A DNA stretch of 64,000 nucleotides from the sequence record PP359570. One strand, written 5' to 3'. The notes beneath the pieces are model-generated. The model was not told the DNA's origin, ran no database searches, and saw nothing but the letters and a program-made list of their open reading frames with translations. Source of the DNA: Escherichia phage ALITA. This document shows, piece after piece, positions 45,601 to 48,780 of this stretch. Made by a program: the position numbers and the translations under genes. Position 1 is the first letter of the stretch. Each line of letters begins with the position of its first letter.

Positions 45601-46032
45601 TTAGTCAGTGAAAATTACGCTTACATCTTCTTTAGAAAAGAGTTTATGATCTTCACCTTTTGTCTCAAGAGTTTCATACAGATTAAGAAGTTCTGAAACA
45701 TCTTTCTCTACCAGTTTCTTCAATGTTGCAATTTTCTGTTTGCGACTCTTAATACGTTCAGCTACAACCTTACGCTGGTATCCGGCAGTACGATAACCTG
45801 AGAAAGTTACACCAGTAAGGCTTGCAGTCACAGGATCGTAGTGACGTTCAATCTGAAACTTATTAAAAGGTACAGCGTCATCACGAATAATCTTACCGCC
45901 ATTACTTACCTGACGAAGACCAGTAACTTGCTCCAGTCGTGCCATAGAAATCTTTGGAGACAGACCAGAGTCCAGGTTCATACCATTGTTAATCAGTGCT
46001 TTCAGGGTGATTTTGCTGTTCAGTGTACTCAT
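45601..46032 (-). CDS. hypothetical protein
   Basis: 143-aa ORF; 5' end overlaps methyltransferase gene 3' end by 44 nt. Confidence 0.45.
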   Translation of the reverse strand: MSTLNSKITLKALINNGMNLDSGLSPKISMARLEQVTGLRQVSNGGKIIRDDAVPFNKFQIERHYDPVTASLTGVTFSGYRTAGYQRKVVAERIKSRKQKIATLKKLVEKDVSELLNLYETLETKGEDHKLFSKEDVSVIFTD

Positions 46033-46720
46033 TTAGTCGTTCCTCCGCTTGCTTAAAAATATTTACATCGGCTTCACAGCCTAAGTATTCTCTACCTGTT
46101 AAAAGTGCCGCAACTTGTGTTGTTGCACTTCCAGAGAAGAAGTCTAAGACTACATCTCCTTCGTTGGTGTGTATATTAATAAGGTCACAAAACAAAGTCA
46201 AGTGTTTTTGTGTTGGATGAAAACGATCTGCTCCTTGATAGATAGGATACTCAAACACACCCTTATGGTAGGAAGCATTGAAGGTTGGCTTCGAACCTTT
46301 AACACAAACAATAGCCATCTCTTTAGCGTTACTAAGGTAGTTAACACCACTGTTGATGGGTACAGGGTTTGTTTTAATCCATTCGATAGTACGGAACATA
46401 CGAAAACCAAGCGGTTCAAGGATTTCACGTAGCTCCTGGATCTTCCAGATATCATACCAAACTATGCAAGTACCACCTTTTCTAAGCACCCTGTAGGCTT
46501 CTTTGAATACTTCTTTAAAGTAAGGAATATCTACAACATCCCAATCACCGAAGTTGTAAGATACACGGAATCTATCCGTATCTTTTCCAGTCGGCTCTCC
46601 AGATTGAAAATTTGTGTCACGAGAAATAGCATATGGTGGGTCAGTAAGAATCAAATCTACACTATTGCTTTCGAGGGTTTGCAGGTAGTTTAATGCGGTG
46701 TTGTTTACAAATTCGCTCAT
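45989..46720 (-). CDS. DNA methyltransferase, beta class (N6-adenine or N4-cytosine)
   Basis: 243-aa ORF; DPPY motif (LILTDPPYAI) near N-terminus and AdoMet-binding FFSGSATT near C-terminus; SD aaggag. Confidence 0.85.
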   Translation of the reverse strand: MSEFVNNTALNYLQTLESNSVDLILTDPPYAISRDTNFQSGEPTGKDTDRFRVSYNFGDWDVVDIPYFKEVFKEAYRVLRKGGTCIVWYDIWKIQELREILEPLGFRMFRTIEWIKTNPVPINSGVNYLSNAKEMAIVCVKGSKPTFNASYHKGVFEYPIYQGADRFHPTQKHLTLFCDLINIHTNEGDVVLDFFSGSATTQVAALLTGREYLGCEADVNIFKQAEERLNEYTEQQNHPESTD

Positions 46721-46736
46721 TATATCTCCTTCAAAG

Positions 46737-46758
46737 AAAAGGAGCCGTTAGGCTCCTT
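46737..46758 (-). terminator. rho-independent terminator / attenuator on minus strand
   Basis: GGAGCC-GTTA-GGCTCC hairpin, T-run on minus strand; near-duplicate of the hairpin at 45571-45590. Confidence 0.45.
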
Positions 46759-46780
46759 ATATTCACACAATATTTAACTA

Positions 46781-47728
46781 TTAGAAACAGTGCAGGAAGT
46801 TTCGACCATACTGCAAACCAATAGGAGCAAATGGGATATCATCATCGAAATCTTGAACAACAGGTTCTGGTTCTTTCGGTGCTGGCTCTTTCTTCTCTAC
46901 TTTTTTAGTTTCTTTCTTAACTTCTTGTACCGGGGTAGACATTCCACGGATAGCAGCAGCTACTTTATCAGACAAAGCAAGAACTTCACGAGCAGCTTCA
47001 ATAATCTCTTCTGCCGTTACAGTTTTACCTGTATGATCACGACAAGCGTTAAGAATTGCGTGTCCAACTGAAGCACCAAGATCATAGTCAGTTACATCAA
47101 CGCCACGATCTTTAGCAATTTCTGCTTTCAGAGTAACAGTTGCAGATTGTACCACACCAGCCAAGTCGAAAGCATCACCTTTCACACCAGCACGTAGAAG
47201 CTCCAGAGCGCCGTTTACAGCGTGTCCTGTTTCAATCCCTACGGTATCACGTTTTTTGTAGTTAGGCTTGCTACCTTCGTTATTAGATGGCTTATTTCCA
47301 CCTTTTGAAGAAGATTGTGCTTGCTGAACACCTTCTGTTGAAAGAATAGTGATTTTACCTTTAGAGGAATTGTAGTATGTTTTGCCATTCCATTCAGAAG
47401 GTTTAACATCCATAGTTAGTTCTACACCTTTTTCGATAGTAACCCACTTATCACCATCTTTAACTTGCAGGTTTTCATGTTCTGGGTGCAGTTTAACTTC
47501 ACCTAGGCTAACCCAAACACCTTTATCATCAGCACCAGCACCTTTCTCTTTAATAAGCAGGGATGCTTTGTGAGTTGATTCAATTTTCTTATCTGGCTGA
47601 CCTGCAACCTTAATATAAGAAACTTTCATTTCATCAAACTTATCTAGTTTGACATATTCAACGATACCTTCAGCCCAGAATGCTTCTTTTTTAGTACGAC
47701 GGTCGATTTCAGAATTAATTACTGGCAT
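46781..47728 (-). CDS. SSB-like protein (contains DFDDDIPF acidic tip motif followed by a 15-aa extension)
   Basis: 315-aa ORF with SD; Gly/Ser/Asn-rich linker then VQDFDDDIPF near C-terminus. Confidence 0.5.
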   Translation of the reverse strand: MPVINSEIDRRTKKEAFWAEGIVEYVKLDKFDEMKVSYIKVAGQPDKKIESTHKASLLIKEKGAGADDKGVWVSLGEVKLHPEHENLQVKDGDKWVTIEKGVELTMDVKPSEWNGKTYYNSSKGKITILSTEGVQQAQSSSKGGNKPSNNEGSKPNYKKRDTVGIETGHAVNGALELLRAGVKGDAFDLAGVVQSATVTLKAEIAKDRGVDVTDYDLGASVGHAILNACRDHTGKTVTAEEIIEAAREVLALSDKVAAAIRGMSTPVQEVKKETKKVEKKEPAPKEPEPVVQDFDDDIPFAPIGLQYGRNFLHCF

Positions 47729-47744
47729 AAATTCTCCTCTATAA

Positions 47745-48186: not shown

Positions 48187-48780
48187 TTAAATTTTAAATT
48201 CTTCACTGTTAAATGAATCCAGTGTACGTACTTCTGGTTCTTTGGGAATGAAAACATCTTTTACAAAGCGGAACATAGGGAAACGTTCTGCCATTTTACG
48301 GACGTGTGCTTCTTTACCTGTGTATCGGTGATTAATAGTACAAATATTAGTTTTCAGTGCAAATTCAAAATCTGGATGATATACATAATTTTGACCGTCC
48401 CAGTAACACAGGCAAATAGCTACATCAAAGTTCCATACGATTTCACTGCGTACACCTTCTTCCATGATCATAAAGTTAAACTTAAGATCTTTATAGTATG
48501 CTTCAAATACCCATTTCAAATGTGGTAGTTCGGCATAAGTGTGTTCTGTTTGCTTAGTAAGTTGTTTAACATTACGTGCACCAACACCCAACATCAAAAA
48601 TTTCTCTACTAATACGAGTGTATTGTGGTTAGGCATACGCAAGTAAATGTCAATATCTTGCGCAGGTTTCTCTAATCGCCAGTCACGTACAGCGCCGCCA
48701 GCTACAATTGCAAACGGATCTACCAGTTGGCACATACGTAATACTTCTAAAGCTCGTACTTTTTGATCTTCAATATTCAT
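48187..48780 (-). CDS. minimal nucleotidyltransferase of the CCA-adding enzyme / poly(A) polymerase head-domain family
   Basis: 197-aa ORF; motif IVAGGAVRDWRLEKPAQDIDIYL matches the GGxVRD...DxD signature of class II tRNA nucleotidyltransferases. Confidence 0.55.
   Translation of the reverse strand: MNIEDQKVRALEVLRMCQLVDPFAIVAGGAVRDWRLEKPAQDIDIYLRMPNHNTLVLVEKFLMLGVGARNVKQLTKQTEHTYAELPHLKWVFEAYYKDLKFNFMIMEEGVRSEIVWNFDVAICLCYWDGQNYVYHPDFEFALKTNICTINHRYTGKEAHVRKMAERFPMFRFVKDVFIPKEPEVRTLDSFNSEEFKI

What the first reader, a model, noticed from the sequence alone, without database searches (positions are those of the whole stretch)
46781..47728. SSB-like protein whose DDDIPF tip is internal, followed by a 15-aa extension
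The C-terminal region reads ...VQDFDDDIPFAPIGLQYGRNFLHCF. In bacterial SSB the DDDIPF motif is the extreme C-terminus and is the partner-protein docking site. An extension would be expected to alter or mask that interaction, or indicates a mutated stop or a different protein class that mimics the SSB tail.
Basis: partly seen in the sequence, partly recalled or inferred. Interest (0 to 1): 0.45.

Follow-up and report, generated by a model that had tools for sequence, protein, structure and literature searches.

The report
Conserved mobile cap on phage SSB tails
The 15 extra residues after the DDDIPF tip are not a broken stop codon but one copy of a conserved, repeatedly gained and lost peptide that many phages of gamma-proteobacteria add to their DNA-binding proteins, hiding the end that normally docks host repair and replication enzymes.

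Summary
ORF 46781..47728 (-) encodes 315 aa ending ...DFDDDIPF-APIGLQYGRNFLHCF. The window is a phi92-like coliphage, and the protein is phi92 gp156 (PHROG 4477).

The predicted structure has an OB-like barrel, a four-helix domain and a disordered tail, so "SSB-like" is reasonable.

The extension is not private to this gene and is not a mutated stop:
- Among 98 relatives, about 80% end exactly at IPF and about 20% carry a 14-17 aa extension (A-P-I/V-G-L-Q-Y ... hydrophobic end). At least 15 state changes are needed on a tree.
- The same module follows a D-D-x-I/T-P-F tip on canonical OB SSBs, at least four other SSB scaffolds and a primase-helicase.
- It was found only in phages and prophages of gamma-proteobacteria, including about 7.5% of complete E. 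coli genomes.
- Synonymous sites are saturated while the peptide, its frame and its length are kept, so selection acts on the peptide.
- HNH homing endonucleases sit at both of its edges and probably move it. The window keeps the extension but no endonuclease.

The function is inferred, not shown: a cap that removes the free Phe carboxylate and so changes which partners dock. The partner is unknown. I found no paper or solved structure containing it.

The parts
46781..47728 (-). Whole ORF, 315 aa. It is a phi92 gp156 / rV5 ORF214-type SSB-like protein (PHROG 4477).
47734..47739 (-). Shine-Dalgarno GAGGAG, 5 nt before the ATG.
   Evidence: sequence; phi92 annotation of the equivalent site
47339..47728 (-). 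Residues 1-130: predicted beta-barrel, OB-like, pLDDT about 90.
47249..47338 (-). Residues 131-160: disordered linker between the domains, pLDDT 45-68.
46949..47242 (-). Residues 163-260: four-helix domain, pLDDT above 90. It holds the most conserved family residues (ETGHAVNGA..., DYDLGASVGHA.LNACR). It has no specific structural match.
46853..46948 (-). Residues 261-292: disordered K/E/P-rich linker.
46829..46852 (-). Residues 293-300, DFDDDIPF: a copy of the host SSB C-terminal tip, internal here.
46784..46828 (-). Residues 301-315, APIGLQYGRNFLHCF: the conserved extension ('cap') module, 15-aa type.
46778..46783 (-). Tandem stops, TAA then TAG.
46774..46809 (-). Short ORF in another frame (ATG GTC GAA ACT TCC TGC ..., MVETSCTVSNS*). 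Its ATG is the tATGg of the Q-Y-G codons. It corresponds to the start of the HNH endonuclease gene of phage nieznany (MVETSCIASKVCFKCG...) and is truncated here, so it is a relic.
46729..46758 (-). Terminator-like hairpin AAGGAGCC-TAAC-GGCTCCTT followed by a T-run. The same hairpin follows the gene in ukendt, ECO340P2 and PVP-SE1.
45989..46720 (-). Downstream N6/N4 DNA methyltransferase. It occupies the place where relatives have the endonuclease or nothing, and is context only.

Best explanation
Shown: the gene encodes the phi92/rV5-type phage SSB-like protein. It has an OB-like barrel, a helical domain, a disordered linker and a tip identical to the host SSB tip. The 15 residues after IPF are one copy of a portable 14-17 aa module with consensus A-P-[IV]-G-L-Q-Y-x(2-3)-hydrophobic-hydrophobic-[H/Y/N]-[C/A/V]-hydrophobic-COOH. 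This module occurs only directly after a D-D-x-[I/V/T]-P-F tip, at the very C-terminus of phage and prophage replication or recombination proteins of gamma-proteobacteria. It is kept by purifying selection on the peptide. It is switched on and off often between close relatives. It is flanked, at either edge, by one family of HNH homing endonucleases that very probably spread it and delete it. The window carries the extension-positive, endonuclease-negative state with a relic of the endonuclease start. Inferred: all structurally studied partners of E. coli SSB hold the last Phe side chain and its free alpha-carboxylate, so the module acts as a cap. It turns the terminal docking tip into an internal one and offers a new hydrophobic C-terminus. 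This weakens or re-directs docking of host SSB partners to phage-coated ssDNA, or recruits a different and still unknown partner. The cap is dispensable, because capped and uncapped alleles coexist. The confidence given is for the whole statement including the inferred cap mechanism; the descriptive part alone I would put at about 0.85.
For: Identity and fold. Only the tip resembles solved SSBs, and no PDB chain extends past the F. Polymorphism: 78 of 100 cluster representatives end at IPF and about 21 are extended. At least 15 state changes are needed on a tree, and identical extensions sit on distant bodies. ukendt, nieznany, ECO340P2 and nepoznato show all four combinations of extension and endonuclease. 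Portability: the module sits on canonical PF00436 SSBs, a K433-type SSB (PHROG 44), other scaffolds and a DnaB-like primase-helicase. Obligate context: all 46 hits of a tail profile among 1.84 billion representatives lie at a C-terminus, 45 of them after ..IPF-like tips. Selection: pS is 0.79-0.86 against pN 0.02-0.10 for codons 1-7 and 0.35-0.44 for codons 8 to the end. Codon tables show free third positions. Window and nieznany differ at 6 of 45 nt, all synonymous in the SSB frame. No partial extensions were seen apart from a single extra residue in one protein. Phage or prophage setting only. Endonuclease link.
Against: No partner was identified and no binding was tested. The AlphaFold model leaves the extension disordered (pLDDT about 51), which is uninformative. 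If the cap only blocked the tip, losing DDDIPF would be simpler, yet the tip stays perfectly conserved in capped alleles. Frequent loss shows the fitness effect is small or conditional. In phage KpS8 the SSB-like protein is uncapped while the primase-helicase is capped, so there is no coordinated use. Conservation of codons 1-7 in the IMG/VR set is partly imposed by the search pattern. The unbiased evidence is the body-homology set. No conserved neighbouring gene co-occurs with the module.
Confidence: 0.45

Rival explanations
1. Selfish passenger. The extension is only the 5' (or 3') flank of a mobile HNH endonuclease cassette that homes to the DNA encoding the SSB tip. It has no function in the SSB and persists as a scar after the endonuclease is deleted.
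For: Endonucleases of one family start inside the extension in nieznany, rV5, L048, phiEB49, L049 and the GAP31 primase-helicase. ECO340P2 keeps the extension plus 5' and 3' stubs of the endonuclease. In an E. coli prophage the endonuclease sits exactly between IPF and the extension. The window retains the endonuclease start codon region. Extension sequences do not follow the body phylogeny.
Against: The 14-aa type in Vibrio and marine phages never has the endonuclease among the 37 distinct tail DNA sequences examined, yet it keeps sequence, frame and length with saturated synonymous sites. The start codon used by the endonuclease is not conserved there (TAC CCA). Window and nieznany differences are synonymous in the SSB frame but change the endonuclease frame. 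A neutral scar should show random truncations, and none was seen.
Confidence: 0.2
2. Added docking motif for one defined replisome factor, for example the host beta sliding clamp or the phage DNA polymerase. This would be analogous to the T7 gp2.5 and gp4 tails that both bind T7 polymerase.
For: The module is on both SSBs and a primase-helicase. It is C-terminal and hydrophobic, like many clamp-binding motifs. Q followed by hydrophobic residues is loosely reminiscent of QL[SD]LF (recalled knowledge).
Against: The spacing after Q varies (QYPALL, QYGRNFL, QYAKHAI) and does not fit QL[SD]LF or QLxLxL. Lambdoid prophages with the module have no polymerase of their own. No co-occurring phage gene was found.
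Confidence: 0.12
3. Degradation tag. The nonpolar C-terminus (..HAI, ..YAL, ..YALYA, ..NCM) is an ssrA-like or MuA-like degron that times SSB turnover through ClpXP, ClpAP or Lon.
For: Endings such as YALYA, HAIHAI and YAL resemble the YALAA end of the tmRNA tag (the resemblance is from memory).
Against: The best conserved part is APIGLQY, not the last three residues. Many endings (HCF, NCM, LCC) do not resemble known ClpX motifs. There is no test.
Confidence: 0.08
4. Private accident: a mutated stop codon or an annotation or sequencing artefact in this phage.
For: ukendt-type relatives stop right after IPF, and their 3' flank is weakly similar to the extension DNA with a 1-nt offset.
Against: The identical extension is present in at least 50 independent phage genomes. 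Conserved homologues are found across families. Purifying selection is evident.
Confidence: 0.01
5. The protein is not an SSB at all. It would be another replication or recombination factor that merely carries an SSB-like tail, so the tail and cap would recruit it to SSB partners rather than coat ssDNA.
Against: The best barrel matches are consistently ssDNA-binding OB proteins (SsbB, RPA32, STN1, Rim1, E. coli SSB, phage p2 SSB). The gene lies in the replication module. Some depositors annotate it as SSB.
Confidence: 0.1

Closest known systems
C-terminal tip of E. coli SSB (SSB-Ct, ..PPMDFDDDIPF-COOH), the docking hub for ExoI, RecQ, PriA, chi, DnaG and others
   Same: The DFDDDIPF sequence is identical, and in many relatives PPMDFDDDIPF is too. 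It is preceded by a disordered linker.
   Different: Here the tip is internal and followed by 15 conserved residues, so the Phe alpha-carboxylate is not free. The body is not PF00436.
Acidic C-terminal tails of T7 gp2.5 (SSB) and T7 gp4 (primase-helicase), both ending in Phe and both binding T7 DNA polymerase (established knowledge)
   Same: In rV5-like phages both the SSB-like protein and the primase-helicase end in an SSB-like ..DD(D/E)(I/T)PF tail, and either can carry the cap.
   Different: The T7 tails end at the Phe. No cap is known there, and the partner here is unknown.
Phage HK620 SSB, whose last six residues NDYPPF are needed to recruit its cognate annealase Sak4 (PMC5928155)
   Same: It is a phage SSB whose tail tunes the choice of partner in a recombination module. 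Several capped SSBs sit next to Rad52-like, RecT or exonuclease genes.
   Different: The HK620 tail is a variant tip at the true C-terminus, not a tip plus extension.
Free-standing HNH / endonuclease VII-like homing endonucleases of large lytic phages (PHROG 2340 and 1035)
   Same: Presence or absence varies between near-identical genomes. Insertion is at a conserved coding sequence, with co-inheritance of flanking sequence.
   Different: The target here is the 3' end of SSB-type genes, and insertion can add or remove a peptide from the host protein. The window itself has no endonuclease gene.
SSBs of mobile elements whose C-terminal extensions are predicted to dock on a partner PolA-like protein (bioRxiv 10.1101/2022.12.02.518924)
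   Same: The idea is the same: SSBs of mobile elements carry bespoke C-terminal extensions for partner binding.
   Different: The sequences and hosts (Firmicutes) are unrelated, and those extensions do not follow a DDDIPF tip.

Membership tests
Canonical bacterial/phage SSB (Pfam PF00436) | Sequence match to the SSB OB-domain profile | tested here: not met
   Pfam scan gave 0 families at E<=1. A family profile against PDB matches only the last ~25 residues of E. coli SSB.
Canonical bacterial/phage SSB (Pfam PF00436) | OB-fold beta-barrel | tested here: met
Canonical bacterial/phage SSB (Pfam PF00436) | Disordered linker ending in the acidic tip D-D-D-I-P-F | tested here: met
   Residues 261-300 are disordered. 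DFDDDIPF is present.
Canonical bacterial/phage SSB (Pfam PF00436) | Tip is the extreme C-terminus (free Phe carboxylate) | tested here: not met
   15 residues follow the Phe.
Canonical bacterial/phage SSB (Pfam PF00436) | Binds ssDNA | not testable with these tools
   This needs EMSA or fluorescence titration with purified protein.
phi92 gp156 / rV5 ORF214 family (PHROG 4477) | Full-length profile match and synteny in the replication module | tested here: met
   PHROG 4477 matches at E=2e-101. The protein is 97% identical to phi92 gp156 and has the same neighbours: DNA polymerase, nucleotidyltransferase and gp157.
Extension ('cap') module defined here | A-P-[IV]-G-L-Q-Y core directly after ..IPF, 14-17 aa in total, with a hydrophobic last residue, at the protein C-terminus | tested here: met
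   APIGLQYGRNFLHCF fits. It aligns with 16 others with G, L and Y invariant and with 46 database representatives.
Homing endonuclease cassette (PHROG 2340/1035 HNH) | Intact endonuclease ORF next to the extension | tested here: not met
   tblastn with four endonucleases finds nothing in the window. Only an 11-codon relic of the start remains.
Beta-clamp-binding motif (QL[SD]LF / QLxLxL) | Q followed by hydrophobic residues at fixed spacing | tested here: not met
   By inspection the spacing varies and position 4 is R, A, K or S. The motif definition is recalled from the literature.
ssrA-like / ClpX C-terminal degron | C-terminal LAA-like or RRKKAI-like ending | tested here: inconclusive
   Some endings (YALYA, HAI, YAL) resemble it, while others (HCF, NCM, LCC) do not. 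There is no functional test.

The most novel reading that the evidence does not exclude
Phages of gamma-proteobacteria possess a natural, switchable cap for the SSB docking hub. The cap is a 14-17 aa peptide that is added to or removed from the DDDIPF tip of their SSBs and helicases, partly by homing endonucleases. It would uncouple phage-coated ssDNA from the host SSB interactome (nucleases, helicases, restart proteins), from a defence that senses SSB tips, or hand the ssDNA to a dedicated partner. This would be an undescribed layer of control of one of the best-studied bacterial protein-interaction hubs, present in about 1 in 13 E. coli genomes through prophages.
Probability: 0.3. Interest if true: 0.8.

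Novelty: new variant of a known kind. Interest (0 to 1): 0.6.

Why it matters
The SSB C-terminal tip is a central hub of bacterial genome maintenance and an antibiotic target. Its free terminal Phe is regarded as essential for docking. A conserved natural peptide that buries this end would give a ready-made probe of which interactions need the free end. It is widespread in phages and in prophage ssb genes of E. coli and marine bacteria, and it is under selection. It also hints that phages tune how their ssDNA intermediates are seen by host nucleases, helicases and perhaps defences. The locus also offers a compact case of homing endonucleases that edit the C-terminus of a host protein. Insertion at one edge keeps the cap, and insertion at the other edge restores the canonical tip. 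For annotation, these genes are mostly labelled 'hypothetical protein', and at least one endonuclease is unannotated.

Tried and rejected
1. My first hypothesis was that the extension is merely a scar or flank of the endonuclease seen in nieznany and rV5. I downgraded it after finding the module without any endonuclease on many other genes, with saturated synonymous sites.

2. I considered that the ukendt 3' flank is a decayed extension created by a 1-nt insertion. The similarity is weak, and that flank resembles the 5' end of the nepoznato endonuclease equally well. This is left open.

3. I searched for a conserved neighbouring gene as a candidate partner by clustering 1018 ORFs around 59 loci. 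The commonest family is in only 17 loci, and there is no universal neighbour.

4. I checked for coordinated capping of the SSB-like protein and the primase-helicase within one genome. It is not seen in KpS8.

5. Sequence search of PDB with the tail profile for any solved chain containing the extension found none. All matches stop at the Phe.

6. Literature string searches for DDIPFAP, APIGLQY, IPFAPI, IPFAPV, APVGLQY and PIGLQY found nothing relevant. Keyword searches found only work on canonical tips.

7. Pfam on the endonucleases and on several SSB scaffolds gave no hits at E<=0.01. PHROGs did classify the endonucleases.

8. Clamp-motif and degron readings were examined by inspection only and are not convincing.

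Full report
**Observation**

The ORF at 46781..47728 on the minus strand is real. It is 315 aa, starts at an ATG with GAGGAG 5 nt upstream, and ends ...VVQDFDDDIPFAPIGLQYGRNFLHCF followed by TAA TAG. DDDIPF is residues 295-300 and 15 residues follow it. No other ORF of the window has such a motif.

The window is a phi92-like coliphage of the genus Justusliebigvirus. The protein is 100% identical to a 'hypothetical protein' of phage Antha and 97% identical to phi92 gp156. At least 50 phage records carry it at >=99% identity over its full length, extension included.

**What the protein is**

Pfam finds nothing. PHROGs places it in family 4477, of unknown function, at E=2e-101. A profile of 44 relatives matches solved structures only through the last ~25 residues of E. 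coli SSB.

An AlphaFold2 model has mean pLDDT 84 and shows four parts:
- a beta-barrel (residues 1-130);
- a disordered linker;
- a four-helix domain (residues 163-260);
- a disordered tail (residues 261-315).

The gene lies between a DNA polymerase with a nucleotidyltransferase and a DNA methyltransferase. 'SSB-like' is therefore reasonable but rests on a predicted fold with modest scores. ssDNA binding is untested.

**The extension within this family**

Of 100 cluster representatives found by whole-protein homology, 78 end exactly at ..IPF and one has a single extra residue. About 21 carry an extension of 14-17 aa. Examples are APIGLQYGRNFLHCF, APVGLQYARHAIYAV, APIGLQYGMNLLHAMP and SPLGLQYPNHSMYALYA. 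In an alignment of 17 of these tails G, L and Y are invariant and A is nearly so.

On a neighbour-joining tree of the bodies the extension state needs at least 15 changes. Identical extensions also sit on distant bodies.

Within the single genus Phapecoctavirus, near-identical genes are found in all four states:

| Phage | Extension | Endonuclease gene |
|---|---|---|
| ukendt | no | no |
| nepoznato | no | yes |
| nieznany | yes | yes |
| ECO340P2 | yes | no |

So the stop is indeed after IPF in most orthologues, and the extension is a discrete on/off character.

**The extension outside this family**

The same module follows a D-D-x-[I/V/T]-P-F tip on several unrelated proteins:
- canonical OB-fold SSBs, such as lambdoid phage mEp235 (APVTLPFPRHAIHAI), Vibrio phage K251 g2 (APIGLQYPAIVHCM) and Cronobacter phage JK004;
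- a different SSB type (Vibrio K433 and phiEB49, PHROG 44);
- further scaffolds without Pfam matches;
- the C-terminus of the DnaB-like primase-helicase of Mydovirus and Seunavirus phages (..GPDDDTPFAPIGLQYAKHAIYVI).

The rV5 primase-helicase, and a body-identical Mydovirus relative, end at ..TPF.

A back-translated DNA pattern for F-APIGLQY found 44 loci in IMG/VR. Forty-three of them carry the motif directly after an ..IPF-like tip within 7-9 residues of a stop codon.

The same pattern in 185,579 bacterial species genomes gave 8 such cases, 7 of them gamma-proteobacteria. Those examined have integrase, RecT, exonuclease VIII or RdgC-like neighbours. It also gave 24 chance hits with neither the tip nor a terminal position.

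A profile of the tail searched against 1.84 billion representative proteins gave 46 hits at E<=1e-3. Every one lies at the protein's C-terminus, and all but one (which reads DDDIAF) are preceded by ..IPF-like tips.

About 410 of 5,426 complete E. coli genomes carry a prophage ssb with the mEp235-type tail. The housekeeping E. coli SSB ends at IPF.

**Selection**

Across 50 distinct tail DNA sequences the third codon positions vary freely. Pairwise synonymous differences are saturated, with pS 0.79-0.86. Non-synonymous differences are 0.02-0.10 for codons 1-7 and 0.35-0.44 for codons 8 to the end. Codons 1-7 were partly fixed by the search pattern. Codons 8 to the end were not constrained by it.

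The frame, the length (14-17 aa) and a hydrophobic last residue are always kept, and no truncated intermediates were seen.

Window and nieznany differ at 6 of 45 extension nucleotides. All six are synonymous in the SSB frame, and two of them change the overlapping endonuclease frame.

This points to long-term selection on the peptide, not on a DNA or RNA element.

**Homing endonucleases**

One family of endonucleases (PHROG 2340 and 1035) has a zinc-finger N-terminus, C-x2-C-G-x2-K-x-L-x-E-F-Y-K-H, and in PHROG 2340 members an HNH C-terminus. Its genes start inside or right after the extension in nieznany, rV5, an rV5-like contig, phiEB49, contig L049, a partial contig (L016) and behind the GAP31 primase-helicase.

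ECO340P2 keeps the extension together with 5' and 3' stubs of that gene.

In an E. coli prophage an unannotated member of the family sits exactly between IPF and the extension. It supplies a stop after IPF, and the extension is left fused in frame to the endonuclease's own end. The extension and flanking sequence match mEp235 at 100% DNA identity over 51 nt.

These enzymes therefore target this junction. They can carry the cap along or cut it off, which explains much of the patchy distribution.

The 14-aa type of Vibrio and marine phages was never found with the endonuclease. The module is therefore not simply part of the endonuclease element.

In the window the extension is followed by the relic MVETSCTVSNS* of the endonuclease start, a shared terminator hairpin, and then a methyltransferase gene.

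**Mechanism**

Shown:
- the module is a conserved C-terminal peptide;
- it is strictly coupled to the SSB tip;
- it is portable between scaffolds and dispensable;
- it is under purifying selection and associated with homing endonucleases.

Inferred from established knowledge of SSB-partner complexes, in which the terminal Phe side chain and its carboxylate are bound: the module caps the tip and changes partner docking. It either blocks host partners or creates a site for another one.

I found no partner. There is no conserved neighbouring gene. There is no coordinated capping of SSB and helicase in KpS8. No solved structure extends beyond the Phe. The model leaves the extension disordered. Clamp-binding and degron readings were considered by inspection and fit poorly or only partly.

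**Comparison and novelty**

The tip is the known SSB-Ct. The closest functional analogies are the T7 gp2.5 and gp4 tails and the HK620 SSB tail that recruits Sak4 (PMC5928155).

None of the 8 million papers searched contains the strings DDIPFAP, APIGLQY, APVGLQY, PIGLQY or IPFAPV, and the one IPFAPI match was unrelated. Keyword searches returned only work on canonical tips.

I rate the extension a new variant of a known kind, that is, a capped SSB tip. The protein itself is a member of a known but uncharacterised phage family.

**Verdict**

- The 'mutated stop' reading is rejected.
- The 'alters or masks the docking site' reading is plausible but untested.
- Interest is 0.6, because the phenomenon is general, touches a heavily studied hub and is directly testable with peptides and simple phage genetics.

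Noticed in passing
L092 about 1066-1545 (E. coli WP7-S17-ESBL-01, NZ_AP022173.1 near 1.5898 Mb): An unannotated HNH endonuclease ORF is inserted exactly between the IPF codon of a prophage ssb and the mEp235-type extension. The extension now forms the last 14 aa of the endonuclease ORF, and the ssb regains a canonical IPF stop.
   Followed up: partly
L093 7375-9438 and 23407-24579 (Klebsiella phage KpS8); L091 (rV5); L089 (GAP31): rV5-like phages put an SSB-like ..DD(D/E)(I/T)PF tail on their primase-helicase as well as on the SSB-like protein. In KpS8 the helicase is capped and the SSB-like protein is not. rV5 is the reverse. In GAP31 the capped helicase gene is followed by the same endonuclease family.
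   Followed up: partly
L044 2012-3934 (IMG/VR contig of 4037 nt): A 640-aa portal-like ORF ends with a Q-rich SSB linker, the tip and the extension, almost identical to the tail of the SSB in L009. It may be an assembly chimera or a real fusion.
   Followed up: no
window 46739-46758 (-) and equivalent sites in L003, L085, L086: A terminator-like hairpin has a stem containing AGGAG (AAGGAGCC..GGCTCCTT). It is conserved behind this gene in phi92-like, Phapecoctavirus and PVP-SE1 phages, whatever lies between it and the stop codon.
   Followed up: partly
window 45989-46720 (-) and 45601-46032 (-): An N6/N4 DNA methyltransferase and a small ORF (phi92 gp155 and gp154) occupy the slot that is empty or holds an endonuclease in Phapecoctavirus. 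The slot between this gene and the tail genes is therefore variable.
   Followed up: no
phage database hits (for example MG065662 'Campylobacter phage A142', MG065690, MG065658): About 20 GenBank records named Campylobacter phage have rV5-type coliphage genes, with the same identity values as Escherichia Vequintavirus records. This suggests mislabelled hosts or contamination.
   Followed up: no
L006 2572-2661 (Vibrio phage K251 g2): A 29-aa hydrophobic ORF overlaps the end of the capped ssb, with a TAATG stop/start overlap, in the 14-aa extension type. Its function is unknown.
   Followed up: no
window 48187-48780 (-): The neighbouring gene is a nucleotidyltransferase / poly(A) polymerase-head-like protein (weak Pfam PF01743 match). 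It is conserved next to this gene in phi92-like and Phapecoctavirus phages.
   Followed up: no
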